From a virus, in IMG/VR virus record IMGVR_UViG_3300042560_001826, positions 1 to 64,000 of that record: 64,000 nt of DNA; one strand, written 5' to 3'. Position numbers and translations under genes: made by a program. Shown in pieces: positions 3,683 through 20,859 of the stretch (within the stretch, counting starts at the first letter, position 1; every line of letters starts with the position of its first letter). The notes beneath the pieces were generated by a model. The model was not told the origin of the DNA and did no database searches. It saw only the letters and a program-made list of their open reading frames with translations.

Positions 3683-3707
3683 TTAATAGTCTGTAATTAG
3701 TTGTTGC

Positions 3708-3733
3708 GGCGGGGTGGATTATTCCGCCCCGCC
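3708..3733 (+). terminator. GC-rich hairpin after MCP (terminator or 3' stabiliser)
   Basis: GGCGGGGTGGA-ttat-TCCGCCCCGCC; no U tract. Confidence 0.6.
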
Positions 3734-3749
3734 AAAACAATATAAAGGG

Positions 3750-4037
3750 ATGATTATGAGTGATAATGTAATTAAAAGTGAAGATATAGCTCCAAAGAAA
3801 ACAAAGCAGGCTAAACCTAAAAAGGTAGCTCCTGCTGAAGTGCCATCTGGTGATAAGTCAATTGTCTTTTTTGAAAGCGGATATTCTTATTCATTATCAA
3901 ACGGTTTTACTTTTACGCAAGAAAATAGAATGCTTGAACTATCGGCGGAAGAGGCAAATAGATTGTTGGCTTTAGATAATTTTAGATTGCCTACTGACGA
4001 AGAAAAGCAAATGTATTATAATAGTTTGGAGGCATAA
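3750..4037 (+). CDS. Small post-MCP head-associated protein (start 3750 or 3756)
   Basis: Lys/Pro-rich N-terminus plus ~53-aa domain ending FRLPTDEEKQMYY; the ORF-track GTG start lies inside the hairpin. Confidence 0.75.
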   Translation: MIMSDNVIKSEDIAPKKTKQAKPKKVAPAEVPSGDKSIVFFESGYSYSLSNGFTFTQENRMLELSAEEANRLLALDNFRLPTDEEKQMYYNSLEA

Positions 4038-4040
4038 TTA

Positions 4041-4424
4041 ATGGCTGGCAATCTTTCTAATTACCTTGAGAATAAGCTGATTGATCACTTCTTGGGGACA
4101 ACAACATTTACAAAGCCTTCGGCTGTCTATGTTGCTCTATTTACAGTAGCACCAAATGATGCTGGCGGTGGTACAGAAGTTACCGGCGGCTCCTATGCTC
4201 GCCAAACTGCCGCATTTACTGCCGCAGCAAGCGGTGCAACCTCTAACAGTGGAAATATTGATTTTGTAAATATGCCAGCTGCAACGACAGTTGCAATAGG
4301 CATTTATGACGCTTTGACAAGTGGTAATTTACTTCTTTGGGGAACACTTACAGCGAATAAAACAACAGATGCTGGAGACACACTAAGAATCGCAACTGGC
4401 GATCTTGATATCAGCATTGATTAA
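4041..4424 (+). CDS. Virion structural protein, fibre/filament subunit-like (MAGNLSNYLENKL...)
   Basis: YVALFT..P...GGTEV.GGSYAR motif common in phage fibre/head-associated proteins. Confidence 0.65.
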   Translation: MAGNLSNYLENKLIDHFLGTTTFTKPSAVYVALFTVAPNDAGGGTEVTGGSYARQTAAFTAAASGATSNSGNIDFVNMPAATTVAIGIYDALTSGNLLLWGTLTANKTTDAGDTLRIATGDLDISID

Positions 4425-4433
4425 GGAGAGCCC

Positions 4434-4775
4434 ATGTTGAGAAGAGAATTTAGTGGTGGTGTGTTAAGAACAACCCTTGATGCAAATATTAGCAACTCAG
4501 ATACTTCAATCACGGTTGTTGATGCATCTACTTTTCCTTCCGGAACAAATCCTTTTGTAATTGTAATTGATAGAGGAACTTTGTCAGAAGAGAAAATTCT
4601 TATCTCTTCAAAGACATCTAATACATTTACTGTTGCTTCTCGTGGATATGATGGTTCTTCTGCGTCAATACATACCACTGGTGCTTTTGTTGATCATGTT
4701 CTTGATGCAACAGTTATTCAAGACATGAATCAAACAACATATGATAATGAAGTTTTAGTTTGGATGGGGGTCTAA
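4434..4775 (+). CDS. Structural adaptor protein with C-terminal hydrophobic peptide
   Basis: TL...I...EE.I...RG..G..A..H beta domain, also found twice in tail protein 35053..38985; ends DNEVLVWMGV. Confidence 0.7.
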   Translation: MLRREFSGGVLRTTLDANISNSDTSITVVDASTFPSGTNPFVIVIDRGTLSEEKILISSKTSNTFTVASRGYDGSSASIHTTGAFVDHVLDATVIQDMNQTTYDNEVLVWMGV

Positions 4776-5114
4776 ATGGCTAATTTAACACCTAAGAGTT
4801 TTTATATTGGATCTAATGTTGGAGCTGGCTCCAATGTTTATACTGTTTCAAATACAGTTGGCAACTATTCAATAATTAAAAACATTAATTTATGCAATAC
4901 AACAGCTTCAAATGCTGTATGTAGCATTCATCTTCTTGTTAATGGAGCATCAGTTGCTGATGCAAATAAAATTGTTAGCAATGTGAATGTTTTGGCAAAT
5001 AATGTTGTTTTCTATAATACATCCATAGTCATGCCTGCTAATAGTCGTATTCATGTTACTCAAGTAACAGCGAATGCTATAACATTTACAATTAGCGGTG
5101 TTGAATATGCCTGA
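4776..5114 (+). CDS. ~115-aa beta-sandwich 'hub' protein, paralog 1
   Basis: Shares pattern with 7117, 11966 and 13761. Confidence 0.7.
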   Translation: MANLTPKSFYIGSNVGAGSNVYTVSNTVGNYSIIKNINLCNTTASNAVCSIHLLVNGASVADANKIVSNVNVLANNVVFYNTSIVMPANSRIHVTQVTANAITFTISGVEYA

Positions 5115-7080
5115 TCTTAATAGATCACTACTTGTTGAATCAGAAAATGCCGATACGCTCGGCGGATTGACTGATGTTACAATTACTGCCGCTGAAGAGT
5201 TTCAGGGTTTAAGTTATAACGGAACACAATGGGTTAATAGTCATATCCCAGTTGTTTCGTATGTTAGAAATGCTGAAGCAAATACATTAACAGCGGGGAC
5301 TGTTGTTTATCTTTTTGGCGGAACCGGTGATCACGCTACTGTTAAAAGAGCAGATAATTCAAGCGATACAACATCTTCAAAGACATTAGGTATTGTTGCT
5401 AATCCTATCTCAGCTTCACAAAATGGTCCAGTCGTAACTCGTGGCTATGTTGATGGAATGGATTTAAGCGTAGGTTATTCAGTTGGAGATATTCTGTGGT
5501 TAGGCAAGAACGGTGCGTTTACAAAGACAAAACCAACCGCCCCAGACCATCTTGTTTTTATTGGTGTGGTCGTCCGTGCAACCAACAACGGAATCATTTA
5601 CGTTGCAACACAAAATGGTTATGAACTTGAAGAATTGCACGATGTTAAGCTTTCAAATGTTGCATCTGGAGATTTTTTAAAGTATAACGGAACGCTGTGG
5701 ATTAATGGACCAATTACTCTTGGTACAGACACAACTGGGAATTATATGTCCAATGTGTCTGCTGGAAACTTAATATCTATTTCTCATACGCCGGGTGAAG
5801 GATCCACTGCAACTATTAATGTTGCTAATGGAACTGCAGGTCAAATAATTGTTGCAAATGCATCTGGTGCTCCAGTGTGGGTTACTGAATCTGGCGATAT
5901 AACAATTGATTCATCAGGCGTTGCATCAATCACTTCAAATGTTATCGTTAATGCCGATATAAGCACTACGGCTGCTATTTCTCTTTCTAAGCTTGCAAGT
6001 GGAACATCTGGTCAAGTTCCTGTTGCAAATGCAACCGGTGTTCCTACATATGTAACACTTTCTGGCGATATAACCATTGCTGCCAATGGTCAAACAACAA
6101 TTGCTGCTAACTCTGTTGCACTTGGTACTGACACTACAGGAAACTATATTGCTACAATTACTGGTACTGCAAATGAAATAACAGTAACTGGTTCTGGATC
6201 AGAAAGCGCTACTGTTACATTAAGTCTTCCAGCTAATGTTACTATTGCAAACAATCTTACAGTTACTGGAGATTTAACTGTTAATGGAAATACAACAACT
6301 CTTAATACCGCAAATCTTAATGTTGAAGATAACTTTGTTCTTCTTAACTCTGGAGTCACTGGATCTCCCACACTAAATGCGGGAATTGAAATTGAAAGAG
6401 GAACATCTACAAATGTTGCTATTCGCTGGAATGAGACAACAGATAAGTGGGAATTTACTGTTGATGGTACAAATTATACAGAGCTGGGTGCTGGTGGCGC
6501 AACTGTTTCTTCAACAGCGCCTTCTACACCAACAACCGGGTCTCTATGGTTTGACTCAGATGATGGTAAAACATATGTCTATTATGATTCTTCTTGGGTT
6601 GAAATTGGTGGCAATCCTCTTGGTGTTACAATCAGCGACTCTGCGCCATCTAGCCCGATAGCGGGTCAAGTTTGGTTTAATTCTAATAATGCTGGCACAT
6701 ATGTATATTATGACAGTCACTGGATTGAAATCGGCTCCAGCGGCTTGGTATCGGCTGTAAGCGCTACTGCGCCAGCAAGTCCTGTCACTGGTCAAATCTG
6801 GTTTAATTCAGAAGATGCCGGAACATATATTTATTACGATTCGGCTTGGATTGAAATTGGAGCAGCTCCATTCAATACAGTTCTTAATCAAATTGATGCC
6901 AAGGGCGATATTCTAGTCGGTACAGCAGATAATACGCTTTCTAAGATTGCACTTGGTACAAATGGCTATGTTCTTGCAGCAAACTCTGCAACAGCAACTG
7001 GTCTGGAATGGACACAGGTTTCAAGTAATCCCTTAACATCAAATGCTGCCGCCATATTTATTATGGACATCGGGGTATAA
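5107..7080 (+). CDS. Long fibre protein with three Trp-containing repeats near C-terminus
   Basis: Fibre-type repeats (LxDV, LGTDTTGNY, GDLTVNG); 3x S.TAP..P..G..WF.S....TYVYYDS.W.EIG; ATG 5107 overlaps upstream stop. Confidence 0.8.
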   Translation: MPDLNRSLLVESENADTLGGLTDVTITAAEEFQGLSYNGTQWVNSHIPVVSYVRNAEANTLTAGTVVYLFGGTGDHATVKRADNSSDTTSSKTLGIVANPISASQNGPVVTRGYVDGMDLSVGYSVGDILWLGKNGAFTKTKPTAPDHLVFIGVVVRATNNGIIYVATQNGYELEELHDVKLSNVASGDFLKYNGTLWINGPITLGTDTTGNYMSNVSAGNLISISHTPGEGSTATINVANGTAGQIIVANASGAPVWVTESGDITIDSSGVASITSNVIVNADISTTAAISLSKLASGTSGQVPVANATGVPTYVTLSGDITIAANGQTTIAANSVALGTDTTGNYIATITGTANEITVTGSGSESATVTLSLPANVTIANNLTVTGDLTVNGNTTTLNTANLNVEDNFVLLNSGVTGSPTLNAGIEIERGTSTNVAIRWNETTDKWEFTVDGTNYTELGAGGATVSSTAPSTPTTGSLWFDSDDGKTYVYYDSSWVEIGGNPLGVTISDSAPSSPIAGQVWFNSNNAGTYVYYDSHWIEIGSSGLVSAVSATAPASPVTGQIWFNSEDAGTYIYYDSAWIEIGAAPFNTVLNQIDAKGDILVGTADNTLSKIALGTNGYVLAANSATATGLEWTQVSSNPLTSNAAAIFIMDIGV

Positions 7081-7084
7081 AATA

Positions 7085-7093
7085 GGGTATAAT
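7085..7093 (+). promoter_or_regulatory. -10 element GGGTATAAT upstream of hub/Gly-rich cassette
   Basis: TATAAT at 7088-7093, followed by AAGGAG SD. Confidence 0.5.
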
Positions 7094-7116
7094 ATAAGTT
7101 ATTAAGGAGATAAAAA

Positions 7117-7452
7117 ATGGCAGTAGGAGATAGAACAGAAGCTAGGCTTGGCGGTCCAACACAGCTTAATACAAACACAACAACGGTTTGCACAGTTTCA
7201 GCAAGCCGGGTTGAGGTTTTAAAGCAGATCGTTATTACCAATACAGATACCGTTGATAGAACGGTTTCTTTGGCTATTGGAAATGCAGCGGTTGCTGCAA
7301 ATAGATTAATGTCTCAATTACCAATTGGTGCAAACGACATTATGGTTTTTGATACAGCACTTGTCCTCACAGCAGGTGAAACATTACAAGGTTTAGCCGA
7401 TGCAAATAGTGTTGTCAATGTAACAGTCATCGGTTGGGAAAAAGAAGTCTAA
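7117..7452 (+). CDS. Beta-sandwich 'hub' protein, paralog 2
   Basis: AAGGAG SD; paralogous to 4776, 11966 and 13761. Confidence 0.75.
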   Translation: MAVGDRTEARLGGPTQLNTNTTTVCTVSASRVEVLKQIVITNTDTVDRTVSLAIGNAAVAANRLMSQLPIGANDIMVFDTALVLTAGETLQGLADANSVVNVTVIGWEKEV

Positions 7453-7458
7453 TTTTAT

Positions 7459-9195
7459 ATGGGTCTTTCTAAGGCTTACGGAGAGAAGTCCTTAACTGGA
7501 TATTCATACGGTGCTGGAACTGGTGGAGACACAACTTCCACTGGTGTCACCATTGGCGGAACGCTTTACAATATCCATACATTTACCAACACAGGTACTT
7601 TCACCGTTACTCGCCCAGGAAAGTTTGATGTGTTTGTCGTCGGTGGAGGAGGCGGCGGTGGTCGCCGCAGTAGCACCAATGTAGGCAGCGGTGGCGGAGG
7701 TGGCGGTGTTGTTATCCAACAAACGATTTACCTTGATACAAATGCAACGGTTACAGTCGGTGCGGGTGGAGGTGTGCAAACAAATACCAATACTGATGGC
7801 AATCGTGGTTCTTTTAGTCGTGTAAATCAAGTTACTGCTGGTGGTGGTGGCGGTGGTGCTGGCGGCGGTAGAGGGGCAGCAAATACCGCTATGGATGCGG
7901 CTGGTAGTGGTGGCGGTTCGTTCGGTTCTACCGCTACGGCTGGTGAAACACCAGGGCAAACGTTAATCACTATCGGCGCAAATAATGGCGGTAATGGCGG
8001 CTACACCACAAACCTTGCAGGCGGTGGAGGTGGAGGTTCGGCACAAGTTGGACAAGGTAATAGTGGTAATGCAGCAGGTAATGGTGGCGCAGGAACAGAT
8101 GTTTCAACTTTTATTGGAGGCTCATCTTTATTTGTAGGCGCTGGTGGCGGTGGTGGGTCAGTATCTGGCACTGGCGGTACAGCAGGTAGTTCAACAGGTG
8201 GCAATGGCGGTTCATCTGGCGCACAAGGTTTAAATGCAACGGCGACAAATTATGGTTGTGGCGGTGGAGGTGGTGCCACAACACAAGGTGGTTCTGGATC
8301 AAATGGAGTTGTCTACATCCGTTACGCAACCAATCAAGGCTTTACAACCAATACGGGAAATACAAAGAATGGTTATGGGACCGCAACTGGCGGCTCGTCA
8401 TCATCAATAACGGCTGATGGTGTAGGTTATACACTTTTAACTTTTACCTCTGCTGGCACATTGACAGTTACACAGGCTGGTTTGTTTGATTTATTAGTTG
8501 TTGGCGGTGGCGGTGGTGCCGGTAGTTCAGAAGTTGGCTCCAGTGGTGCTGGCGGTGGTGGTGCTGTTATTCAACAAACTGTTTATTTAAGTAGCAATCA
8601 ATCAATTACTGTTGGAGCTGGTGCTGCTGCTGGAGTATCTGCTAGAGGTGGTCCCAATGGTGGTGCATCTATTGTTGGTTCAACTGTTGGCGCTGTTGGT
8701 GGCGGTGGTGGAGGGGGTAGTTTTTCTGGACCATTTGTTGGTGGTTCTGGAGGTGGTGGTGCAGGTCAAGTAGGTGGTGGATATGGCAATGGTCAAACAG
8801 GTGCAGCTAGTGCATATGATCCAAGCACATCTTTTGGCAATTCTGGTGGCACATCATCTGGAGCCGCAGGGGATGCAGGCGGTGGCGGAGGTGCAGGTGG
8901 CGCAGGTGCAGCTAGTAATACTGGAGGAACAAACGGTGGTAAAGGCGGAGACGGAAAAGATGTTTCCTCCTTTCTTGGTCAATCTGCAGGGACTACTTAT
9001 CTTGGTGCTGGCGGTGGTGGTGGCGCAGATGCTGGTACTGCTGGAGCAGCGGGTTTAGGTGGAGTTGCTGGTAAAACAAGTGGAACTGGCAACAGCGGTG
9101 CAAACAATTCTGGTGCTGGTGGTGGAGGAACTGTCAATAATGCTACTGCTGGCGCTGGCGGTTCAGGCGTTGTCTATGTGAGGTTTAGAACATGA
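7459..9195 (+). CDS. Glycine-rich adhesin-like protein with two tandem Gly-rich domains
   Basis: Two units of F...GT.TVT..G.FD..VVGGGGGGG...VTVGAGG...GSG.VY.R. Confidence 0.85.
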   Translation: MGLSKAYGEKSLTGYSYGAGTGGDTTSTGVTIGGTLYNIHTFTNTGTFTVTRPGKFDVFVVGGGGGGGRRSSTNVGSGGGGGGVVIQQTIYLDTNATVTVGAGGGVQTNTNTDGNRGSFSRVNQVTAGGGGGGAGGGRGAANTAMDAAGSGGGSFGSTATAGETPGQTLITIGANNGGNGGYTTNLAGGGGGGSAQVGQGNSGNAAGNGGAGTDVSTFIGGSSLFVGAGGGGGSVSGTGGTAGSSTGGNGGSSGAQGLNATATNYGCGGGGGATTQGGSGSNGVVYIRYATNQGFTTNTGNTKNGYGTATGGSSSSITADGVGYTLLTFTSAGTLTVTQAGLFDLLVVGGGGGAGSSEVGSSGAGGGGAVIQQTVYLSSNQSITVGAGAAAGVSARGGPNGGASIVGSTVGAVGGGGGGGSFSGPFVGGSGGGGAGQVGGGYGNGQTGAASAYDPSTSFGNSGGTSSGAAGDAGGGGGAGGAGAASNTGGTNGGKGGDGKDVSSFLGQSAGTTYLGAGGGGGADAGTAGAAGLGGVAGKTSGTGNSGANNSGAGGGGTVNNATAGAGGSGVVYVRFRT

Positions 9196-10928
9196 GTATT
9201 TCTGGAGCAAGACAACCAAGATTGGCAACCGAATACGGTATTGCAGCCGGTGGCACAGATGTTACTGTTAATGGCATTGGATATAAGCTACATACATTCA
9301 CTGCAACAGGTACACTAACTGTCACTACTGGTGGTCTTTTTGATATCTTAGCTGTTGGCGGTGGCGGTGCTGGTGGAGGTAACTGGGATGGAACATTTCA
9401 GTCTGGTATGGGCGGTGGTGGTGCCGGAGGATATATTGAAAAAACTATCTACATTGCTAGCGGTACTCATTCAGTTGTAATAGGCGCAGGTGGTGCTGGT
9501 GATTATGCAGCTCCAAGAAATGGAACAAGTAGCGGTGTCTATGCCACATTTACTGGTGGTGGTGGAAGTGCTCCTTCATATGCAATCAATTTTAATAATA
9601 CTTGGTACGGTGCTAAAACTGGTTCTGATGGTGCTTCTGGTGGTGGTGGAACTGGTAGAGCTTCTCAAACTGCAACAAATGCTGGCGGTGCAGGTCAATC
9701 ACCATTAGGAAATAGTGGTGGTTCATCATTTAGTGAAAGCGGAAGCGGAACTTCCGCAGCAGGCGGAGGTGGTGGCGGTGCCGGTGCTGTTGGATCAAAT
9801 GCATCAGCAAATACTGGAGGCGCTGGTGGAGCAGGTGTTACATCAACATTTACCGGATCATCCACAACTCTTGGCGGCGGTGGAGGAGGCGGTGGTGTAA
9901 CCACTGGAGGCGCAGGTGGTGCTGGTGGAGGTGCTGCTGGTAGAACTGGTACTGGCAATGGAAACAATGCAACAGCAAACACCGGTGGCGGTGGTGGTGG
10001 TGCAAGAAGCAATGGAGAAAATCAATATATTGGCGGCAATGGTGGCTCAGGAATCGTCTATATCCGTAGAAGAGTAACAGGATCCATTGCAGCAACTGTT
10101 GCTGGTTATGGTACAGCAACTGGTGGAACAGACTTAGGAACACGGACTGTTAGTGGCATTGATTACAAGATTCTTCAATTCACATCAACGGGAACTTTGA
10201 CAGTGACGAAGGGTGGACTTTTTGACATTATAGCCATATCTGGTGGTGGAGGCGGAAATCAGGGATATACCAACTTCCCATCGCTTGCAAATGGTGGAGC
10301 TGGTGGCGGTGGCATTACCACTGAAACAATTTCCCTCACTACAAATGTGACTATCACGGTTGGTGCTGGTGGCGCTGGTGGTGCAACTGGCACTAATGGC
10401 ACAAGTGGAGCAACTGGATCTCCATCAGGTGTTAGCACGAGACTATTTGCCTTTGGTGGCGGAGGTGCTCAAGATAATATTCCGTCAAATGGTATTTGTG
10501 GCGCTGGTAGCACTCGCCAAACAGCTACAGGCGGATTAGCGATTTTAAATCAAGGAACCGGAGTGGTTCGTGGTTATGATGGCGGCTCAGGTCCAACTGG
10601 AAATACTAATGGCTCTGCTGGCGGTGGCGGTGGAGCTGGCGGTGTTGGTGGTAATGGTGTAGGCACTACTGGCGGTGCTGGCGGTGCTGGTTTTGATGTC
10701 TCAACAATTATTGGTGGCTCAACTTTGCTACTTGGTGGCGGTGGCGGTGGTCCTGGTTCAGTTACAGGTGGAACTGGTAATGGTGGCGGTGGCAATGGTG
10801 GTTCAAATGGTGCAGGAACATCTGGTTCAACAAACACAGGCGGAGGTAGTGGTTCAAGTATCAACAATAATTCTAATACTCTCAATGGTGGATCTGGCAT
10901 TGTTTATGTCAGATTTAGAGTATTGTAA
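9192..10928 (+). CDS. Glycine-rich adhesin-like protein with two tandem Gly-rich domains
   Basis: Same architecture and identical length (578 aa) as 7459..9195; ATGA overlap. Confidence 0.85.
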   Translation: MSISGARQPRLATEYGIAAGGTDVTVNGIGYKLHTFTATGTLTVTTGGLFDILAVGGGGAGGGNWDGTFQSGMGGGGAGGYIEKTIYIASGTHSVVIGAGGAGDYAAPRNGTSSGVYATFTGGGGSAPSYAINFNNTWYGAKTGSDGASGGGGTGRASQTATNAGGAGQSPLGNSGGSSFSESGSGTSAAGGGGGGAGAVGSNASANTGGAGGAGVTSTFTGSSTTLGGGGGGGGVTTGGAGGAGGGAAGRTGTGNGNNATANTGGGGGGARSNGENQYIGGNGGSGIVYIRRRVTGSIAATVAGYGTATGGTDLGTRTVSGIDYKILQFTSTGTLTVTKGGLFDIIAISGGGGGNQGYTNFPSLANGGAGGGGITTETISLTTNVTITVGAGGAGGATGTNGTSGATGSPSGVSTRLFAFGGGGAQDNIPSNGICGAGSTRQTATGGLAILNQGTGVVRGYDGGSGPTGNTNGSAGGGGGAGGVGGNGVGTTGGAGGAGFDVSTIIGGSTLLLGGGGGGPGSVTGGTGNGGGGNGGSNGAGTSGSTNTGGGSGSSINNNSNTLNGGSGIVYVRFRVL

Positions 10929-10994
10929 AAAATGGTAAAAGCATGATCGGGCAAAAATATCATAAATATGTTATTATTTATATGGAGATAAATT

Positions 10995-11687
10995 ATGCCG
11001 TTTAGTTCTGTATTGGGTGCATCAACTGTTATAAGACCGGGTGTTTGTACTTCTACAACCCGCCCATCTGCTCCATATACAGGGCAGTTAATCTTTGAAA
11101 CCGATACCAGCCGATTGGCAGTATGGACAGGTTCTGCATGGCAGTACGAAACCGCTGCTGCTGGTCCTCCTGGGTTGGTATATATCACTGGGGCAACCTT
11201 TACAACTGCCACATCATTTAGCTTGCCTAATGATACCTTTAGTAATACTTATCTCAATTACAAAATTATAATCAATCTGACTGCGCTGACAGCCGACGCA
11301 GACTTTACTATGCGTTTTCGCACCGCTGGAACGGATAACAGCAATAACACATATGCATATACTTTTGCTGGAGTGGGGCTTGGCGGCACTGCTACCAACA
11401 GTGCAGCCAACGATGGAACAGCGTTCGTCGTAGGAGAACAAGAGGCTACATCTGGTTCAGAAATGCGTTATGGTCTTACATTTGATATCTTAAGCCCTAA
11501 AGCAACAACGACTACTAAAGTACAAGGTCATTACGTTTACGTCAATAAGGCGGCAACAGACCAAATTTCTCGTTTCGGTTCAGGCGTATTTAGGGCTACT
11601 ACTTCTTTTGACAGTTTAAGCTTCATAAGCTCTGTAGCGTCAAGCATGTCTGGAAACTACCGTGTATACGGATACACGGATAGTTAA
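10995..11687 (+). CDS. Fibre/receptor-binding-like protein
   Basis: N-terminal TSTTRPSAPYTGQLIFETDT...WTGSAW module and beta-rich C-terminal domain. Confidence 0.7.
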   Translation: MPFSSVLGASTVIRPGVCTSTTRPSAPYTGQLIFETDTSRLAVWTGSAWQYETAAAGPPGLVYITGATFTTATSFSLPNDTFSNTYLNYKIIINLTALTADADFTMRFRTAGTDNSNNTYAYTFAGVGLGGTATNSAANDGTAFVVGEQEATSGSEMRYGLTFDILSPKATTTTKVQGHYVYVNKAATDQISRFGSGVFRATTSFDSLSFISSVASSMSGNYRVYGYTDS

Positions 11688-11704
11688 TATCGGAGGTATA
11701 TAAA

Positions 11705-11956
11705 ATGCCAATTGATTTTCCAAATAGCCCCGCAACAAATGATCAGTTTGTAAGTGGCGGTCGTACATGGATTTGGGATGGTTCCGTATGGAAGGCATAT
11801 ACTCAAGCATTAAATAATTCAACAATTACTTCTAATATGATTGTAGATGGTACAATTGTTAATGCTGATATCTCAAATACAGCTGCAATTAATACAACTA
11901 AAATTACAAATTGGGAAGATGACCAAGTAGTTCTAGCTGTCCAAGCTTTTATTTAA
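11705..11956 (+). CDS. FPxxP branch adaptor 1 (MPIDFPNSP...WEDDQVVLAVQAFI)
   Basis: Paralog of 13505 and 15406; GGAGG SD. Confidence 0.8.
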   Translation: MPIDFPNSPATNDQFVSGGRTWIWDGSVWKAYTQALNNSTITSNMIVDGTIVNADISNTAAINTTKITNWEDDQVVLAVQAFI

Positions 11957-11965
11957 GGAGGAAAA

Positions 11966-12328
11966 ATGGCAACATTTTCAAAGACAATTTTAAGCGGATC
12001 TACAAATGGTAGACCAGTTCTTGTCAATACAACATCATCTAATACATGTGTTGTTCACACAGGTTCAACAAATACATCTGTCCAACACGAAGTCTGGATT
12101 TATGCAATGAATACAGATACGACAGATCGCAAGCTTACGCTTGAGTTTGGTGGTGTTACAAGCCCCAATGACTTGATCGAGCAAACAATTACCGCTGAAG
12201 GCGGGTTGTTATTGGTCATTCCAGGTTTAATTCTTAGCGGTAATGCTTCTACAGCTCCCAGAATCACAGCATTCGCAAACACAGCCAATGTTGTTACAGT
12301 TCTTGGTTTTGTCAACGTCATTGCATAA
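11966..12328 (+). CDS. Beta-sandwich 'hub' protein, paralog 3
   Basis: AAGGAGG SD; NTDTTDR motif shared with 7117. Confidence 0.78.
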   Translation: MATFSKTILSGSTNGRPVLVNTTSSNTCVVHTGSTNTSVQHEVWIYAMNTDTTDRKLTLEFGGVTSPNDLIEQTITAEGGLLLVIPGLILSGNASTAPRITAFANTANVVTVLGFVNVIA

Positions 12329-12338
12329 GGAGGCTTAA

Positions 12339-13187
12339 ATGCGTTTTGGTGAGCGTACACGCCCCGGCGTATCTATAAGCACATTTGGTAGACGACCTTC
12401 TGCTGGTATTTCCTATGGCGTGGCAACAGGTGGCACCTCTTCATCTATTACCGATAACAGTATTGCTTACACACTGTTGAGTTTTACTTCTGATGGAACT
12501 TTAACTGTAACCAAGGCTGGGCTATTTGATATTTTGTGTGTTGGAGGCGGTGGTGGAGGTGGCGCACAACTGTACGGAGGTGAACCAACTGGAGGCGGCG
12601 GTGGAGGAATGGCTTGCATTTCAACTTTGTTTCTTCCAGTCGCTTCTTATACTGTTGATGTTGGTGTTGGTGGTGCTGGCGGAGATTCCAATACACACGC
12701 TGGTTCTCTTGGGGAAACATCCGTAATTTTTAATGCAAAAGCAACAACTTCTGTCATGCATGCAATAGGTGGACAGGGTGGTGCTGGAGACTGGGGCGGC
12801 GTTAGTCGTTATCCCGGAAATCAAGGTGGTCAAAGTTACCGCAACGGATATAATCAAACTGTTGCAGGTGCAATATCTTTGCATCCACTTGGATACAACG
12901 GTGGAGGTTCGCAGAACTCAACAACTCGTGCTGGCGGTGGTGCTGGTGCAGGAGGAGATGCGAGCGATTCGCCAGCAGGAACTGCTGGTATTGGTCGCAC
13001 ATTGACATTTACTGGAAGCAGTGTAACTTTTGGTCAAGGTGGTGGCGGAGGAACCGCTACTGGTCTTGGCACAAACACACCGTCTACAGTGAACTCTGGG
13101 AATGGTGGCAATGGTCGCCAAAGCGGAGGCTCTGGTAACGGTGGGAATGGTCAAGCAGGTGCAATATATGTGAGGTTCCGCCCGTGA
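12339..13187 (+). CDS. Glycine-rich adhesin-like protein (single domain)
   Basis: Same Gly-rich domain; ends IYVRFRP. Confidence 0.85.
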   Translation: MRFGERTRPGVSISTFGRRPSAGISYGVATGGTSSSITDNSIAYTLLSFTSDGTLTVTKAGLFDILCVGGGGGGGAQLYGGEPTGGGGGGMACISTLFLPVASYTVDVGVGGAGGDSNTHAGSLGETSVIFNAKATTSVMHAIGGQGGAGDWGGVSRYPGNQGGQSYRNGYNQTVAGAISLHPLGYNGGGSQNSTTRAGGGAGAGGDASDSPAGTAGIGRTLTFTGSSVTFGQGGGGGTATGLGTNTPSTVNSGNGGNGRQSGGSGNGGNGQAGAIYVRFRP

Positions 13188-13411
13188 GTGAACAAACCTA
13201 TTTTGCCAAAGTTGAAGATGGTATTGTTACAGATGTTCGTATTGTAAAATGGGATTTCCTTGTAGCAAACCCAGACCGTTACGGTGATTCCTCTTTTTGG
13301 ATTGAAGTTTTTCCAGATAACTCTGGTCGTGGCTACTGCTCTAAGGGTTGGTCATATGACGCTGAACTTGATAAATTTATAGGTCCGTTTATTAGCAAGG
13401 TAGCAGAATAA
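13184..13411 (+). CDS. Small partner protein following Gly-rich gene, paralog 1
   Basis: YFAKV...VTDV...YDAELDKFIGP; paralog of 15026 and 16595. Confidence 0.75.
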   Translation: MSEQTYFAKVEDGIVTDVRIVKWDFLVANPDRYGDSSFWIEVFPDNSGRGYCSKGWSYDAELDKFIGPFISKVAE

Positions 13412-13504
13412 TGTGTTCGTATATTGGCTATGTATAGTTTAGGATTTAATTAAATATATTTTAATATAAAATAATATATGATATTCTTTATTGAGAGGTA
13501 AAAT

Positions 13505-13759
13505 ATGGCAATTGATTTTCCAAACTCCCCAACAACAAACCAGATTTTTACATCTGGCGGAAAGACATGGGTGTATGATGGAACAGTTTGGACATTAAGA
13601 TCCTCGTTGGCAGGTCCTGGTGGAATTACCTCAACAGAGCTTGCAAACTCATCTGTTACAACTGATAAAATTGCATCAGGTGCAATAGTTTCTAATTTAG
13701 GATTTACACCGGCATCAACCGGTAAAAGTATTGCTATGGCAATAGTATTCGGAGGATAA
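13505..13759 (+). CDS. FPxxP branch adaptor 2 (MAIDFPNSP...GKSIAMAIVFGG)
   Basis: N-terminal domain shared with 11705 and 15406; different C-terminal peptide. Confidence 0.8.
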   Translation: MAIDFPNSPTTNQIFTSGGKTWVYDGTVWTLRSSLAGPGGITSTELANSSVTTDKIASGAIVSNLGFTPASTGKSIAMAIVFGG

Positions 13760-13760
13760 A

Positions 13761-14114
13761 ATGGCAGCGCCAAATATAGTTAATGTAACAACAATTACGG
13801 GTAAAACAGCAGTTCAAGCGGTGACCACATCTGCTACAGCGATTGTCACAAATTCTGCTGCCAGTAATACAGTCGTTAAAATCAATGCATTATATGTTGC
13901 AAATATTGATGGTACAAACGCTTGCGATCTCACTGTTGATTTGTTTAGAAGTTCAACCGCATATAAAATTACTTCAACCGTATCGGTTCCGGCAGATGCG
14001 GTGCTAGATGTTATTAGTAAATCAATATATCTTGAAGAAGGTGACTCTCTCAGACTCACTGCTGGTGCTAATTCAGACCTTGAGGCGGTTTGTTCTTACG
14101 AAATTATTAGTTAA
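13761..14114 (+). CDS. Beta-sandwich 'hub' protein, paralog 4
   Basis: MAAPNIVNVTTITGKT...YLEEGDSL...SYEIIS. Confidence 0.78.
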   Translation: MAAPNIVNVTTITGKTAVQAVTTSATAIVTNSAASNTVVKINALYVANIDGTNACDLTVDLFRSSTAYKITSTVSVPADAVLDVISKSIYLEEGDSLRLTAGANSDLEAVCSYEIIS

Positions 14115-14116
14115 TT

Positions 14117-14962
14117 ATGCGTAGAAGAGGCGGCGTAATAGGACCAAAGCGAAATGCTAATGGTGGTGGTGGCATATGGTCATTAAATGATCAACAGCAA
14201 GAAAATGGCGCTGGAACTTGGGGTGTAATGTCAACATCCGTAGTTGAATATTTGATAATTGCTGGCGGTGGCGGTGGTGGTCCTAGTGGCGGTGGCGAAA
14301 GAGGCGGCGGTGGTGCTGGAGGTTATAAGACAAACCTATCTGGAGCAACCAATGGTGGCGGTCAAGCACTTGGTACTGTCATGAATGTTACTGGCGGGAG
14401 TCAGTATACGGTAACTGTTGGTGGAGGTGGAAATGGAAGTTCAACCCCAACAGCCGGCAGTAGCTCCGTATTTAATTCAATCACTTCTACTGGTGGCGCT
14501 GTCGGTGGTGGTGGTGGTACTGACCCTGGTGGTGCTGCTGGTTCGTTTGGCTATACTGGCGGTTCGTCAATAAATAACTCTGCTGCTGGCGGAGGTGGTG
14601 GCGCTGGGGCTGCTGGTGGTAATGCCAGCAGCGGCGTTGCAGGAAATGGTGGCGCAGGTTTGGCAAGCACAATTACTGGTTCATCGGTTACTCGTGGCGG
14701 TGGCGGTGGTGGGAGTGCTTCAGGTGGAACTAATGGAACTGGCGGTTCTGGTGGTGGAGGTAATGCAACCCTAGGTGGAACAGCAAATACTGGTGGCGGA
14801 GGTGGTGGCGCTGGTGGTGCTGGCGGTTCTGGCGTTGTTATTATTCGTTACCCATCAACATCATTAGCGGCAACAACGACTGGTGCATCTGTTGTTTATA
14901 ATAACGGTGCTGGCGGTTATCATGTTTACACATTTAATGCTTCTGGTACAATAACATTTTAA
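14117..14962 (+). CDS. Glycine-rich adhesin-like protein
   Basis: VEYLIIAGGGGGG...GGSGVVIIRYP...YTFNASGTITF. Confidence 0.85.
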   Translation: MRRRGGVIGPKRNANGGGGIWSLNDQQQENGAGTWGVMSTSVVEYLIIAGGGGGGPSGGGERGGGGAGGYKTNLSGATNGGGQALGTVMNVTGGSQYTVTVGGGGNGSSTPTAGSSSVFNSITSTGGAVGGGGGTDPGGAAGSFGYTGGSSINNSAAGGGGGAGAAGGNASSGVAGNGGAGLASTITGSSVTRGGGGGGSASGGTNGTGGSGGGGNATLGGTANTGGGGGGAGGAGGSGVVIIRYPSTSLAATTTGASVVYNNGAGGYHVYTFNASGTITF

Positions 14963-15025
14963 CTAATAGATTTTTATTTCTACCTGTGGTATTATATACA
15001 AGAAACCAAAAGGAGGTTTTCTAAA

Positions 15026-15391
15026 ATGGCTCATTTTGCCCAAATTAACGAAAGCAATATCGTGACACAGGTTATCGTTGTGTCCAATAACGATTGTGGT
15101 GGTGGAGAATACCCCGGATCGGATTCCATCGGAGCTGCCTTTTGCCATAATCTTTTAGGCGGAACATGGAAACAAACTTCTTATAATAATAATTTCCGTA
15201 AGCGCTACGCCGGAATTGGATATACATTCAATGCTGAGCTTGATGCATTCATTGCCCCTCAGCCGTATCCTTCTTGGACATTGAATACGGAAACAGCAGA
15301 TTGGGAAGCCCCAACACCACGCCCCACAGAAGGCGTATGGACATGGAATGAATCCACTCAGCAATGGGATGAGGTTACATTACCCGCTTAA
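15026..15391 (+). CDS. Small partner protein, paralog 2 (MAHFAQ...)
   Basis: QTSYN..FRKRYAGIGYTFNAELDAFIAP; AGGAGG SD; TGGTATTAT -10 at 14987-14995. Confidence 0.8.
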   Translation: MAHFAQINESNIVTQVIVVSNNDCGGGEYPGSDSIGAAFCHNLLGGTWKQTSYNNNFRKRYAGIGYTFNAELDAFIAPQPYPSWTLNTETADWEAPTPRPTEGVWTWNESTQQWDEVTLPA

Positions 15392-15405
15392 TTAAGAGGT
15401 AACTA

Positions 15406-15696
15406 ATGCCATTAGATTTCCCAAATACACCGGCAACAAATGATAAGTATTCTGCTGGTGGAAGAACATGGACATATAACGGAACATCTTGGGTATTAGA
15501 TGTTTATGTCGGAGTTGTACCAGTTGGTGCTGTTGATACAGCGCAGCTGGCAAATTCCGCTGTCACAAGTGCAAAGATTGCAGATGGTACGATTGTTAAT
15601 GCCGATATCTCTACATCAGCAGCAATAACAACAACAAAAATTACAAACTGGGAAGATGATCAAGTCGTTCTATCTTCCCAAATTTTTTCTGCATAG
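15406..15696 (+). CDS. FPxxP branch adaptor 3 (MPLDFPNTP...WEDDQVVLSSQIFSA)
   Basis: C-terminal ~35 aa nearly identical to 11705 protein. Confidence 0.8.
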   Translation: MPLDFPNTPATNDKYSAGGRTWTYNGTSWVLDVYVGVVPVGAVDTAQLANSAVTSAKIADGTIVNADISTSAAITTTKITNWEDDQVVLSSQIFSA

Positions 15697-15707
15697 ATGG
15701 TGATTTG

Positions 15708-16592
15708 ATGTCTTACGGAAGAAGATTAAGATCGGGCACTTCAGTAAGTAATTGGACTAAGCGTAGTGCCAGCGCTCCTCTAAATATTGCCACTGTTGAA
15801 TATCTTGTCATTGCTGGTGGTGGCGGTTCGCAAACATCGGGCGGCGCTGACCGTGGCGGTGGTGGCGCTGGTGGCTATCGCTGTTCAGTAGTCGGTGAAA
15901 CAACTGGTGGTGGTGGTTCAGCAGAAGTAAGACTGGCTTTCTTCAAGAACACGACCGTGACTGTCACCGTTGGTGCTGGTGGCGGTATCTCTACACAAGG
16001 TAGCAGTAGTTCGTTTGCCGGAATTACATCTACTGGTGGTGGCGGGGCTACTGACGGTACTGGCGGTTCTGGCGGTTCTGGTGCTGGTGGTTCGGGTGGT
16101 TCGGCTGGCGGCGCTCGCACTGCATCACCGGTACAAGGCAACAACGGCGGAAGTGCGGGAACGCAAGGTTCTGGTGGCGGTGGTGGTGCTGGCGGTGCTG
16201 GCACTAATGCCACCACGAATACTGGCGGCAATGGCGGTATCGGTTTGAGTTCGTCTATTGACGGAGCCGCAACTAGTCGTGGCGGCGGTGGTGGCGGTGG
16301 TGGTCTAAGTACTGGCGGTCCTGGCGTTGCTGGCGGTGGGAACGGCGATTCAAACTCTGTTCCTGGTAGTGCTGGCTCAGCAAATACTGGTGGTGGCGGT
16401 GGTGGAACTTACGCAAGTCGTTCAGGGCGTTCTGGCGGCTCGGGAATAGTCATCATGCGTTATCCATCAAGTTTTGGAACGTTGACATCTATCGGCGCAG
16501 GACTCACATCAACGACGGGAACCTACTCATCTGGTGGAGTAACTTATCGTTACTACTCATTCACTGCTGGCACGGACACGATTACTTTCTGA
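15708..16592 (+). CDS. Glycine-rich adhesin-like protein
   Basis: VEYLVIAGGGG...GGSGIVIMRYP...FTAGTDTITF. Confidence 0.85.
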   Translation: MSYGRRLRSGTSVSNWTKRSASAPLNIATVEYLVIAGGGGSQTSGGADRGGGGAGGYRCSVVGETTGGGGSAEVRLAFFKNTTVTVTVGAGGGISTQGSSSSFAGITSTGGGGATDGTGGSGGSGAGGSGGSAGGARTASPVQGNNGGSAGTQGSGGGGGAGGAGTNATTNTGGNGGIGLSSSIDGAATSRGGGGGGGGLSTGGPGVAGGGNGDSNSVPGSAGSANTGGGGGGTYASRSGRSGGSGIVIMRYPSSFGTLTSIGAGLTSTTGTYSSGGVTYRYYSFTAGTDTITF

Positions 16593-16594
16593 TT

Positions 16595-16879
16595 ATGGCA
16601 CACTACGCATTTATCAACTCAAACAATGTCGTGACGGAAGTGATTGTAGGTCGTGACGAAGATGATCTAGCAGATGGAGTTTCCTCGTGGGAAGAATATT
16701 ACGCAACAAAACGTGATGGTGTTATTTGCAAACGAACTTCATACAACACTTATCGTGATGAGAACGGCGTTCCGCAACATGCAAACGGTGGCGTACCATT
16801 CCGTGGTCAGTATGCTGGTATCGGTGACAGATACGACGCAGAACTAGATCAATTTATAACACCAAATAATCCTAAATAA
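16595..16879 (+). CDS. Small partner protein, paralog 3 (MAHYAF...)
   Basis: RTSYNT...FRGQYAGIGDRYDAELDQFITP. Confidence 0.8.
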   Translation: MAHYAFINSNNVVTEVIVGRDEDDLADGVSSWEEYYATKRDGVICKRTSYNTYRDENGVPQHANGGVPFRGQYAGIGDRYDAELDQFITPNNPK

Positions 16880-17126: not shown

Positions 17127-17400
17127 TAAATATACCCCAGAAGACCTTGATGCAAGGTTAAGATTTGTTATTGGCTGTGTCTTGGGTGCAGTGCTCTTTA
17201 CAACGACATTAGCCATTCTATATGCTCTCGTTTTTGTTTCTCAACCAATTGGTGCACAAGCAGAAAATGACAAAATGTTCTTTAGCGTTCTTTCAAGCAT
17301 TGCCACATTTATTACCGGCACATTGGCTGGTTTGATGATTTCCAATGTGAAAGGAAAGCAGGCACAGGAAGAAGAGGCTGATATTCCAGTAGAGGAATAA
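17119..17400 (+). CDS. Two-TM membrane protein (holin-like)
   Basis: AAGGAG SD before ATG 17119; two hydrophobic segments. Confidence 0.7.
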   Translation: MNNKYTPEDLDARLRFVIGCVLGAVLFTTTLAILYALVFVSQPIGAQAENDKMFFSVLSSIATFITGTLAGLMISNVKGKQAQEEEADIPVEE

Positions 17401-20350: not shown

Positions 20351-20366
20351 GGGTAGGGAGGTGATC

Positions 20367-20597
20367 ATGTCTACTAAGTCACAAAACTTAGATCAAGCAC
20401 TTAAGGGAGGCGCACTCGGCGTTTGGGTCTGGCTGGCTACTGTTCAGCTAAATCTTGACGGTGAAGTAGTTGCCGTATTAACACCGGCAATTGCCTACGG
20501 ACTTGCATGGTTATCAACAAGAGTTGGCGATCCAACAGTTGCTTCTTTCTTAGCAAAGAAGCCTGCGGAAAAGCCCGCTGTTAAAAAGAAGGCATAA
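20367..20597 (+). CDS. Small membrane protein (holin-like)
   Basis: GGAGGTGATC SD; two hydrophobic segments; basic C-terminus. Confidence 0.7.
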   Translation: MSTKSQNLDQALKGGALGVWVWLATVQLNLDGEVVAVLTPAIAYGLAWLSTRVGDPTVASFLAKKPAEKPAVKKKA

Positions 20598-20600
20598 GCG

Positions 20601-20858: not shown

Positions 20859-20859
20859 A

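What the first reader, a model, noticed from the sequence alone, without database searches (positions are those of the whole stretch)
4434..16879. Plug-and-socket code for a branched, combinatorial virion adhesin tree
Seen in sequence: four paralogous ~115-aa beta-sandwich 'hub' genes (4776, 7117, 11966, 13761) each follow a gene ending in a short hydrophobic 'plug' peptide (DNEVLVWMGV; AAIFIMDIGV; EDDQVVLAVQAFI; KSIAMAIVFGG), and each is followed by client proteins (the long fibre, the Gly-rich adhesins, the 10995 protein). The 15406 adaptor ends in the same EDDQVVL plug as 11705, and its cassette has no hub gene. Its Gly-rich client begins MSYGRRLRSGTSVS, matching the 11966-cassette client (MRFGERTRPGVSIS), whereas the 13761 client starts differently (MRRRGGVIGP...GIWSL). 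Inference: plug type selects a hub, the hub selects client N-termini, and two cassettes share one hub. This would be an orthogonal assembly code that lets receptor-binding heads be swapped on a branching fibre.
Basis: partly seen in the sequence, partly recalled or inferred. Interest (0 to 1): 0.9.

Follow-up and report, generated by a model that had tools for sequence, protein, structure and literature searches.

The report
Tag-and-joint code for phage adhesin fibres
This phage builds its host-binding fibres from separate proteins that seem to be joined by four kinds of small jelly-roll "joint" proteins, each always paired with its own short tail tag on the protein before it and its own leader on the protein after it. 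The same rule holds in hundreds of other aquatic phage genomes, but binding itself has not yet been shown.

Summary
The 105-kb phage genome has exactly four small hub genes (4776, 7117, 11966, 13761) and exactly five ORFs ending in the plug peptides, all in this region.

AlphaFold2 models of two hubs are confident jelly-roll beta-sandwiches. Profile comparisons link all four hubs through the 7117 type.

Across about 290 related viral loci, each class of C-terminal plug sits next to only one hub class. Of 173 unique plug-bearing ORFs, 166 are followed by the cognate hub and none by a non-cognate one. The rest of the upstream protein is freely shuffled (46 N-terminal classes, 72-1274 aa).

Leaders of the downstream proteins are also specific to one hub class. 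Hubless cassettes like 15406/15708 recur next to a cognate hub in another complete genome. Natural hub-fibre fusions exist, and cultured phages (pelagiphage HTVC033P, cyanophage Bellamy) carry the same triplet.

I read the hubs as non-covalent structural joints between fibre segments and glycine-rich adhesins. Physical binding, stoichiometry, branching and virion location remain untested. The one complex prediction gave no verdict.

The hub family is very large (6,242 clusters at 50% identity) and wholly unannotated. First-stage readers of this scan noted the same pattern on at least four other genomes.

Verdict: a new variant of a known kind (modular fibre connectors), interest 0.7.

The parts
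4041..4424 (+). Gp80-like fibre/whisker subunit (context; conserved neighbour of the root gene)
   Evidence: PF23140 E 3e-40; directly precedes the root gene in 89 of 94 related loci
4434..4775 (+). Root anchor protein (113 aa) with a tail-fibre-type N-terminal domain. Ends in plug class P1 (...NEVLVWMGV, nt 4743-4772).
   Evidence: (phrog_38058/23837 N-terminal match)
4776..5114 (+). Hub H1 (112 aa)
   Evidence: (96% hhalign probability to H2)
5107..7080 (+). Long fibre. Leader class C1 (MPDLNRSLL...), three Trp-containing repeats, C-terminal plug class P2 (...AAIFIMDIGV, nt 7048-7077).
   Evidence: C1 HMM E 9e-14
7117..7452 (+). Hub H2 (111 aa)
7459..9195 (+). Client: protein with two Gly-rich (PF21722) domains, leader class C2
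   Evidence: C2 E 8e-7
9192..10928 (+). Second protein with two Gly-rich domains, paralogue of 7459. Leader not assigned to a class.
10995..11687 (+). Client that is not Gly-rich, leader class C2 (...IRPGVCTSTTRP...)
   Evidence: C2 E 5e-9
11705..11956 (+). Short anchor (FPNSP...W.W.G..W N-terminal motif) ending in plug class P3 (EDDQVVLAVQAFI)
11966..12328 (+). Hub H3 (120 aa), jelly-roll
   Evidence: AF2 pLDDT 95.7; phrog_30535 E 7e-33
12339..13187 (+). Gly-rich client, leader class C3b (MRFGERTRPGVSIS)
   Evidence: E 7e-13
13184..13411 (+). Small helper ORF, possibly a chaperone (inference only)
   Evidence: phrog_14370. ORFs of this kind follow Gly-rich genes in relatives.
13505..13759 (+). 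Short anchor (FPNSP motif) ending in plug class P4 (...GKSIAMAIVFGG)
13761..14114 (+). Hub H4 (117 aa), jelly-roll
   Evidence: AF2 pLDDT 89.4; at least 7,992 clusters of relatives
14117..14962 (+). Gly-rich client, leader class C4 (MRRRGGVIGPK...GIWSL)
   Evidence: E 2.5e-11
15026..15391 (+). Small helper ORF (MAHFA... type), possibly a chaperone (inference only)
   Evidence: phrog_7759 E 4e-45
15406..15696 (+). Short anchor ending in plug class P3, in a cassette without a hub gene
15708..16592 (+). Gly-rich client of the hubless cassette. Its leader is class C3b, the class that belongs to hub H3.
   Evidence: E 5.4e-10
16595..16879 (+). Small helper ORF (MAHYA... type)
   Evidence: phrog_7759 E 6e-22

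Best explanation
The region encodes a fibre and adhesin apparatus that is assembled from separate proteins rather than made as long polypeptides.

Four classes of a small (about 115 aa) jelly-roll protein act as structural joints. Each joint recognises a class-specific tag of 10-14 residues at the extreme C-terminus of the proximal fibre or anchor protein. It also recognises a class-specific leader of about 20 residues at the N-terminus of one or more distal proteins. Most of these distal proteins are glycine-rich adhesins of the Pam3 gp24 / S16 gp38 kind.

The chain in this phage would be:
- root anchor 4434 (tag P1), hub 4776, long fibre 5107 (leader C1, tag P2), hub 7117, heads 7459 and 10995 (and perhaps 9192);
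- three short FPNSP-type anchors carrying P3, P4 and P3. These feed hub 11966 (heads 12339 and, in trans, 15708) and hub 13761 (head 14117).

Because tag and leader are short and portable, recombination can put any body or head on any joint.

Shown: the genes, the fold, the class-to-class co-occurrence rule, hubless cassettes and natural fusions. Inferred: direct binding (probably by strand addition to a hub oligomer, likely a trimer), presence in the virion, and several heads per hub.
For: 1. Plug and hub are exclusive. Unbiased clustering of the last 16 residues of upstream genes gives clusters that each go with one hub class only: 48, 37, 29+8 and 12 unique tails. Of 173 unique plug-bearing ORFs, 166 are followed by the cognate hub and 0 by a non-cognate hub.
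2. The tag is portable. The same plug classes sit on 46 unrelated N-terminal classes and on bodies of 72-1274 aa, including a collagen-like one. In the H4 set, mean pairwise identity falls from 0.63 in the last 12 residues to 0.11 just upstream.
3. Leader clusters of downstream genes are also exclusive to one hub class. Leader HMMs built from other genomes classify the window's clients as predicted.
4. The two faces assort independently. Both H3 plug classes occur with both main H3 leader classes.
5. Hubs can act in trans. The hubless P3-plus-C3 cassette of the window recurs in G003 (loci L029/L030) beside an H3 cassette.
6. Natural fusions exist. The hub occurs as the N-terminal domain of fibre proteins (P0032, P0038, P0057, P0069). 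It also occurs, often doubled, at or toward the C-terminal end of longer proteins (P0142, P0003, P0004). One protein reads hub-shaft-plug and is followed by another hub.
7. In G002 and G003 the FPNSP anchor is fused directly to Gly-rich heads. The split form therefore replaces a covalent link.
8. The fold is a compact viral jelly-roll like trimeric cement, knob, C1q/TNF and ExsF proteins.
9. The same triplet occurs in cultured phages, next to genes annotated as tail fibre.
Against: No physical evidence of binding was obtained.

Plug, hub and leader are adjacent DNA. Their perfect co-occurrence could therefore partly reflect linkage within a recombination block.

Within a class I saw little fine-scale covariation between hub and plug (Spearman rho -0.09 to 0.29).

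PDB fold matches are generic (TM 0.4-0.6, Z at most 9.7). Oligomeric state is a guess.

Some hubs lack a plug-bearing upstream gene (for example the second H3-like hub of G002). The upstream partner of the hub-fibre fusions ends in a different, tail-collar-like C-terminus.

The cluster lies next to the capsid gene and a Gp80-like gene, while a separate distal-tail module lies at 26-40 kb. The attachment site on the virion is therefore unknown.
Confidence: 0.6

Rival explanations
1. The hubs are assembly chaperones or trimerisation factors. They recognise the C-terminal tag of the upstream fibre and are released before or at maturation, like Tfa or T4 gp38. They would not be structural joints.
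For: Genes just downstream of fibre genes are often chaperones that act on the fibre's C-terminal end (general phage knowledge; Pam3 gp25 in PMC9608196). The tag-hub exclusivity fits this equally well.
Against: This does not explain why the leader of the next gene is hub-class-specific or why the two faces assort independently. Hub domains occur fused at the N-terminus of fibre shafts, which is not a chaperone layout. Separate helper ORFs of the MAHFA type already follow the Gly-rich genes. There is no match to known chaperone families in Pfam or PHROGs.
Confidence: 0.13
2. The hub is itself a terminal lectin-like receptor-binding knob recruited in trans by the tag. The Gly-rich proteins attach elsewhere or act independently.
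For: The fold resembles C1q/TNF knobs, the Sf6 needle knob and CBM35/CBM22 carbohydrate-binding modules. One record annotates the homologue as 'putative lectin'.
Against: Hub sequences are very conserved (mean pairwise identity 0.64-0.80), unlike receptor-binding tips. The diversity lies in the downstream heads. The hub-class-specific leaders remain unexplained. Hubs sit between fibre segments: H1 is followed by a 657-aa fibre.
Confidence: 0.08
3. There is no binding code. Plug, hub gene and leader form one conserved stretch of DNA that serves as a recombination linker between exchangeable cassettes. The class-to-class association would be pure linkage.
For: All three elements are contiguous. 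The conservation islands end sharply at their edges, as expected of recombination junctions. Little within-class covariation was seen.
Against: Hubless cassettes keep tag class and leader class matched although the hub gene lies elsewhere. Tag and leader are conserved at the protein level across very divergent DNA. The hub is a well-folded, highly conserved protein with thousands of relatives and natural fusions to fibres.
Confidence: 0.08
4. The hubs are capsid or neck decoration trimers (cement or turret-like). The whole tree would be a head or neck fibre system rather than a tail fibre. The tag-and-joint logic could still hold, but the location differs.
For: The best structural neighbours of H4 are the KHP40 trimeric cement protein (Z 9.7) and the HFTV1 turret (Z 9.2). 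The cluster follows the major capsid gene and a Gp80-like gene, a family that forms neck or collar fibres in GP4 and Bas63. A separate distal-tail module with its own fibre lies at 26-40 kb.
Against: In the podovirus HTVC033P the same triplet follows genes annotated as tail structure and tail fibre. Four hub classes, each flanked by fibre and adhesin genes, are hard to fit to capsid lattice positions. The Z scores are in the generic range.
Confidence: 0.1

Closest known systems
T4-type long tail fibre joints (gp35/gp36 between gp34 and gp37) and the S16 gp38 adhesin capping gp37
   Same: The fibre is built from separately encoded segments. Small connector proteins or a docking platform hold them together. 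The distal element is a glycine-rich adhesin (S16 gp38; PMC9608196).
   Different: Pfam and PHROGs scans of the hubs returned no match to any named fibre or connector family. Here one small jelly-roll family occurs in at least four apparently orthogonal classes, each defined by a terminal tag and a leader, and is reused several times in one genome.
GP4 / A1002 / Bas63 chain-like fibres (Gp80-family dimers strung on a 'rope' by beta-sheet augmentation)
   Same: Small beta-rich subunits hold extended peptide segments of another protein (PMC13730344, PMC12609058). A true Gp80 homologue lies at 4041-4424, next to the root gene.
   Different: The hubs are not Gp80 relatives (hhalign probability 0.4%). 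Here the bound elements would be termini that link different proteins, not repeats along one rope.
Branched receptor-binding systems with conserved N-terminal anchor domains (CBA120, G7C, SP6/K1-5, Klebsiella jumbo phages)
   Same: One virion carries several receptor-binding heads. Exchangeable heads carry conserved docking N-termini (my own knowledge; topic of preprint 10.64898/2026.05.12.724579, listed, not read).
   Different: Those systems dock head to head through larger domains. Here a separate small hub protein and a C-terminal tag of about 12 residues mediate each joint.
Bacillus exosporium and Ena anchoring (ExsFA/BxpB jelly-roll trimers that hold the N-terminal peptide of BclA or F-Anchor fibres)
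   Same: This is a jelly-roll protein that captures a terminal peptide of a fibre. ExsF, BxpB and Ena chains are among the Foldseek neighbours of both hub models.
   Different: The similarity is at fold level only (TM 0.35-0.52), with no sequence relationship. The biological context (spore surface) is different.
Cohesin-dockerin assembly of cellulosomes
   Same: This is a conceptual analogue: orthogonal plug and socket pairs that set the order of assembly of a multi-protein scaffold (my own knowledge).
   Different: The folds and organisms are unrelated, and nothing was tested here.

Membership tests
Pfam PF23140 Gp80 (GP4 fiber I subunit), for ORF 4041-4424 | Whole-protein score above Pfam's gathering cut-off | tested here: met
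   138 bits against a cut-off of 27, E 3e-40, covering 1-127 of 128 profile positions
Pfam PF23140 Gp80, for the four hubs | Detectable sequence or profile similarity to Gp80 | tested here: not met
   No Pfam hit for the hubs. hhalign of the window's Gp80-like protein against the hub alignment gives probability 0.4%.
Pfam PF21722 Gly_rich_2 (glycine-rich adhesin domain), for 7459, 9192, 12339, 14117, 15705 | Score above the gathering cut-off (24.3 bits) | tested here: met
   86.4, 121.6, 62.8, 34.8 and 45.6 bits
One hub superfamily (the four hubs as paralogues) | Significant profile-profile or HMM links between all classes | tested here: inconclusive
   H1-H2 96% probability. H2-H3 E 2e-3 and 3.7e-5. 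H2-H4 E 0.015 plus a shared phrog_1276 hit. H3-H4 none. The H2 HMM reaches 8 H3 and 2 H4 members. The H3 and H4 models are the same fold class.
TNF / C1q-like trimeric jelly-roll knobs | Jelly-roll fold with close structural superposition | tested here: inconclusive
   Foldseek TM 0.36-0.50 to the Sf6/HS1 knob, Pgp3, C1q and TWEAK. VIA Z 7.2-7.5, within the generic range.
TNF / C1q-like trimeric jelly-roll knobs | Homotrimer formation | not tested
   The only multimer job (3 hubs + 3 tags) returned no verdict.
Phage capsid cement proteins (KHP30/40, Pam1 gp6, GP4 gp1 type) | Structural similarity and a position on the capsid lattice | tested here: inconclusive
   H4 against KHP40 cement: TM 0.60, Z 9.7. 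Capsid location cannot be tested here. The gene context is fibre genes.
Tail fibre assembly chaperones (Tfa / gp38-chaperone type), for the hubs | Match to a known chaperone family | tested here: not met
   No such Pfam or PHROGs family among the hub hits. The hubs are all-beta, without the helical domain described for Pam3 gp25.
Proposed tag-hub-leader joint | Class-specific co-occurrence of tag, hub and leader across genomes | tested here: met
Proposed tag-hub-leader joint | Direct cognate-specific binding and presence in virions | not testable with these tools
   Needs biochemistry, mass spectrometry or cryo-EM. One structure-prediction attempt gave no verdict.

The most novel reading that the evidence does not exclude
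Thousands of aquatic phages, from podoviruses of SAR11 to 100-200-kb siphovirus-like phages of cyanobacteria and freshwater bacteria, share an orthogonal peptide-tag and jelly-roll-socket assembly code. Each oligomeric hub would accept one fibre end and up to three different leader-bearing heads, so a virion would carry a branched, heteromeric set of adhesins. Recombination could rewire that set simply by moving a 12-residue tag or a 20-residue leader.
Probability: 0.3. Interest if true: 0.85.

Novelty: new variant of a known kind. Interest (0 to 1): 0.7.

Why it matters
Host recognition by environmental phages is largely a black box. The hub family found here is very large: 6,242 clusters at 50% identity for the superfamily, and at least 7,992 clusters at 90% identity for one class. 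None of it is annotated. It occurs in ecologically dominant phages such as pelagiphage HTVC033P.

If the tag-hub-leader rule reflects binding, it gives a simple grammar for three things:
- reading which proteins belong to one fibre, straight from a metagenomic sequence;
- explaining how receptor-binding heads are exchanged without disturbing the rest of the virion;
- providing a set of small, apparently orthogonal protein connectors that could be tested and reused in protein assembly.

It is directly testable in cultured phage-host pairs.

Tried and rejected
1. A complex prediction of 3 x hub H3 with 3 x 50-residue tag-bearing C-termini gave no verdict (best ipSAE 0.20, mark 0.32, controls not run). 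I do not use it either way.
2. A word-based search for longer, fused relatives of H2 found none. The exhaustive profile search later did find fusions.
I therefore looked at the context of fusion proteins through the search for related loci instead.
4. Read-through or frameshift joining the upstream gene to the hub is rejected. Spacings vary from -20 to +36 nt in all frames across relatives, and every hub in the window has its own ribosome-binding site.
5. Hubs as Gp80 relatives is rejected.
6. Sequence search of the PDB with the hub profiles found nothing meaningful.
7. Structure searches of the PDB gave only generic jelly-roll neighbours, so no function can be transferred from them.
8. ESM Atlas and source names gave only 'hypothetical protein'.
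9. A test for within-class covariation of hub with tag or leader showed only weak correlations. It neither supports nor excludes contact.
10. Literature searches found no description of this module.

Full report
**Context**

The window is the first 64 kb of a 105,121-bp IMG/VR virus record that CheckV rates as complete. Genes run on the + strand:
- portal end, protease/scaffold, and the major capsid protein at 2651-3682, which is 49% identical to those of Streptomyces BE-cluster phages;
- a small post-capsid gene and a Gp80-family gene at 4041-4424 (PF23140, E 3e-40);
- the region of the finding at 4434-16879;
- a large secreted repeat protein and a lysis cassette at 17.4-21.7 kb;
- a siphovirus-like tail module, with a major tail protein at 26424, a 1,911-aa ORF I take to be the tape measure at 27829, and a distal fibre at 38985.

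**Observation**

The four small ORFs (112, 111, 120 and 117 aa) each have their own ribosome-binding site. HMMs of the four hub classes, run over all ORFs of the whole genome, find exactly these four genes. A scan for the plug motifs finds exactly five ORFs: 4434, the long fibre, 11705, 13505 and 15406.

AF2 with alignments from related loci gives confident all-beta jelly-rolls for 11966 (pLDDT 95.7) and 13761 (89.4).

Paralogy is solid for 4776 and 7117 (hhalign 96%). It is weaker from 7117 to 11966 (E 3.7e-5; 2e-3) and from 7117 to 13761 (shared phrog_1276 hit; E 0.015). The 7117-type HMM reaches members of all the other classes. I treat the four as one superfamily, with that caveat.

**What the neighbours are**

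- The five "client" genes 7459, 9192, 12339, 14117 and 15705 carry the Gly_rich_2 domain PF21722. Glycine-rich domains of this general kind form the receptor-binding tips of Pam3 gp24 and S16 gp38 (PMC9608196).
- Each of the three single-domain heads is followed by a small ORF of phrog_14370 or phrog_7759 (MAHFA... type). Such ORFs are conserved behind Gly-rich genes in relatives and may be chaperones. That is inference.
- The three short proteins 11705, 13505 and 15406 share an N-terminal FPNSP...W.W.G..W motif and differ at the C-terminus.

**Comparative test of the "code"**

I collected about 290 loci from IMG/VR with the four hubs as queries. I then analysed the genes flanking every hub.

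1. *Tags.* Clustering the last 16 residues of the upstream genes, without reference to hub type, gave clusters that are each confined to one hub class:
   - ...GKAIAMAIVFGG with H4: 48 unique tails;
   - ...AAIIxMDxGA with H2: 37;
   - ...EDDQxVLxxxIF with H3: 29, plus a second class ...DTVEQExxxLxW with H3: 8;
   - ...NEVLVWMGV with H1: 12.
2. *The reverse direction.* Of 173 unique ORFs ending in one of the four motifs, 166 are followed directly by the cognate hub and none by a non-cognate hub. Several of the 7 exceptions are ORF-calling misses.
3. *Portability.* The proteins carrying these tags fall into 46 unrelated N-terminal classes and range from 72 to 1274 aa. The same N-terminal class occurs with P1, P3 or P4, or with P2, P3 or P4, and so on. 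One body is collagen-like. In the H4 set, mean pairwise identity is 0.63 in the last 12 residues and 0.11 in the 30 residues before them. The tag is therefore a short portable element that always travels with its hub.
4. *Leaders.* The first 22 residues of the downstream genes also cluster by hub class without overlap: 56 for H4, 45+4 for H2, 23 for H1, and 21+8+4 for H3.
5. *Classifying the window's clients.* Leader HMMs built only from other genomes assign 5107 to C1, 7459 and 10995 to C2, 12339 and 15708 to C3b, and 14117 to C4. 9192 stays unassigned.
6. *Independent faces.* Within the H3 class, both tag classes occur with both main leader classes, so the two sides of the hub assort independently.

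**Hub sharing**

In the window, 15406 (tag P3) is followed directly by 15708 (leader C3b) with no hub, and the only H3-type hub is at 11966.

The same arrangement occurs in a second complete genome, G003 (96,978 bp). There a 145-aa P3 protein is followed by a C3a-leader Gly-rich head, and the next cassette is P3 protein, H3 hub, head.

In G002 and G003 the FPNSP anchor is also found fused directly to Gly-rich heads. The tag-hub-leader unit thus stands where a covalent link stands in sister genes.

**Fusions and spread**

A profile of all four classes finds 6,242 representative clusters (50% identity) at E <= 1e-3. Several forms occur:
- single-domain proteins of about 110-120 aa;
- many tandem double hubs of about 215-245 aa;
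- proteins with the hub at residues 4-105 followed by a typical fibre shaft and distal domain (P0032, P0038, P0057, P0069);
- a fibre-like protein ending in repeated hub domains (P0142), and shorter proteins with a tandem hub pair at the C-terminal end (P0003, P0004).

One locus has a hub-shaft-tag protein immediately followed by another hub (L299), which is a daisy chain. These fusions argue that the hub is part of the mature fibre.

The H4 class alone has at least 7,992 clusters at 90% identity. All are named "hypothetical" and none has a Pfam domain. The ESM Atlas agrees.

Cultured carriers:
- Pelagibacter phage HTVC033P. gp66, annotated "putative tail fiber protein", ends ...GKAIAMAIVFG. 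It is followed by gp65 (hub), gp64 (Gly-rich head starting MANGGIIGP...) and gp63 (MAHFA helper).
- Synechococcus phage Bellamy, with two such triplets.
- S-SKS1.
- DSL-LC04, where the hub is annotated "putative lectin".

**Fold comparison**

There is no sequence homologue in the PDB.

Foldseek and VIA-align place both models among small jelly-rolls:
- the Sf6/HS1 needle knob, chlamydial Pgp3, C1q/TNF, ExsFA/BxpB and Ena subunits;
- nucleoplasmin cores and CBM35/CBM22;
- for H4, the KHP40 trimeric cement protein (TM 0.60, Z 9.7) and the HFTV1 turret (Z 9.2).

These scores are in the generic range, so they fix the fold class only. Many of these neighbours are trimers, and ExsF holds an N-terminal peptide of a fibre. 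Those are analogies, not evidence.

In BFVD the closest models are unnamed phage proteins of 107-120 aa. More distant hits (TM 0.54-0.58) include small proteins annotated as virion structural proteins in S-TIM5, S-SCSM1 and MaMV-DC. That is a lead that such proteins are in particles.

**Mechanism**

The best reading is that the hubs are non-covalent joints. A hub oligomer takes the C-terminal tags of the proximal fibre on one face and the leaders of distal proteins on another. The most likely mode is addition of extended strands. Class specificity then sets the order of assembly.

The nearly invariant but poorly packed N-terminal arm of H4 (residues 1-13) may take part in such contacts.

H2 is followed by three C2-type genes in G002. 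In this genome it is followed by three genes, two of which are assigned to C2. That fits several heads per hub, but it is only suggestive.

What remains unshown:
- binding;
- stoichiometry;
- branching;
- where the root anchor sits.

The root gene is preceded by a Gp80-like gene in 89 of 94 loci. Gp80 relatives form neck or tail-attached chain fibres in GP4, A1002 and Bas63. The phage also has a separate distal-tail fibre. A neck or head location is therefore a live alternative.

**Rivals**

The rivals are: the hub as a released chaperone, the hub as a lectin tip, pure linkage of a recombination block, and capsid or neck decoration. They are weighed in the report sections above. None explains the leader specificity, the hubless cassettes and the fusions together as well as the joint model does.

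**Other notes of this scan**

First-stage notes on at least four other genomes describe the same tags and small adaptors. They are unchecked notes, and I did not use them as evidence.

**Verdict**

This is a new variant of a known kind, modular phage fibre connectors. The family is very abundant and unannotated. Interest is 0.7.

Noticed in passing
window 17400-20300: A 966-aa protein with a signal peptide, long Thr/Pro/Glu-rich linkers and C-terminal hydrophobic segments. It lies between the fibre cluster and the lysis genes. Similar genes sit near the fibre module in G002 and G003.
   Followed up: no
window 20361-21669: A lysis cassette (two small membrane proteins and a 291-aa endolysin-like protein) lies between the fibre cluster and the head-tail and tail genes. 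This is an unusual position.
   Followed up: no
window 2651-5114 and loci L217-L295: The block of major capsid gene, post-capsid gene, Gp80-like gene, root anchor (tag P1) and hub H1 is conserved. The Gp80-like gene precedes the root gene in 89 of 94 loci. This may mean the tree is attached at the neck or head through a GP4-like fibre-I system.
   Followed up: partly
L299:6507-7361 and L298:5550-6026: Proteins that read hub domain, short shaft, P2-like tag (...AGAIVLMEMM). In L299 the next gene is another H2-like hub. This looks like a daisy-chain connector.
   Followed up: partly
L303:13743-14345 (G002): A C2-leader client of hub H2 that itself ends in a P2-like tag (...TIIDIGAI). It could plug back into the same hub class.
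   Followed up: no
L303:9573-12144 and the reverse complement of L305+L306 (G003), positions 12385-16644: Here the FPNSP-type anchor domain is fused directly to Gly-rich heads (396-529 aa). These are covalent counterparts of the split anchor, hub and head cassettes.
   Followed up: partly
L055:287-898; L264:2531-3208; L266, L267, L268: Hub variants of 203-225 aa with a large insertion or partial duplication. The profile search also finds many tandem double hubs of about 215-245 aa (for example P0002).
   Followed up: no
window 13761-13799 (H4 residues 1-13): The N-terminal arm MAAPNIVNV..I.GK is almost invariant across 45 homologues. It has low confidence and no packing in the monomer model, so it may be an inter-subunit or partner-binding strand.
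   Followed up: no
window 6505-6861 and 11705, 13505, 15406: The long fibre has three Trp-containing repeats of the same motif type as the N-termini of the three short anchors and of 10995 (after its leader). Another first-stage note proposes that these are docking sites. I did not test that.
   Followed up: no
L298:2857-3492 and L299:1896-3149: The genes upstream of the hub-fibre fusion proteins end in a tail-collar-like C-terminus (...QPxxxLNYIIK[AY]) rather than a P2 tag. This may be a further tag class.
   Followed up: no
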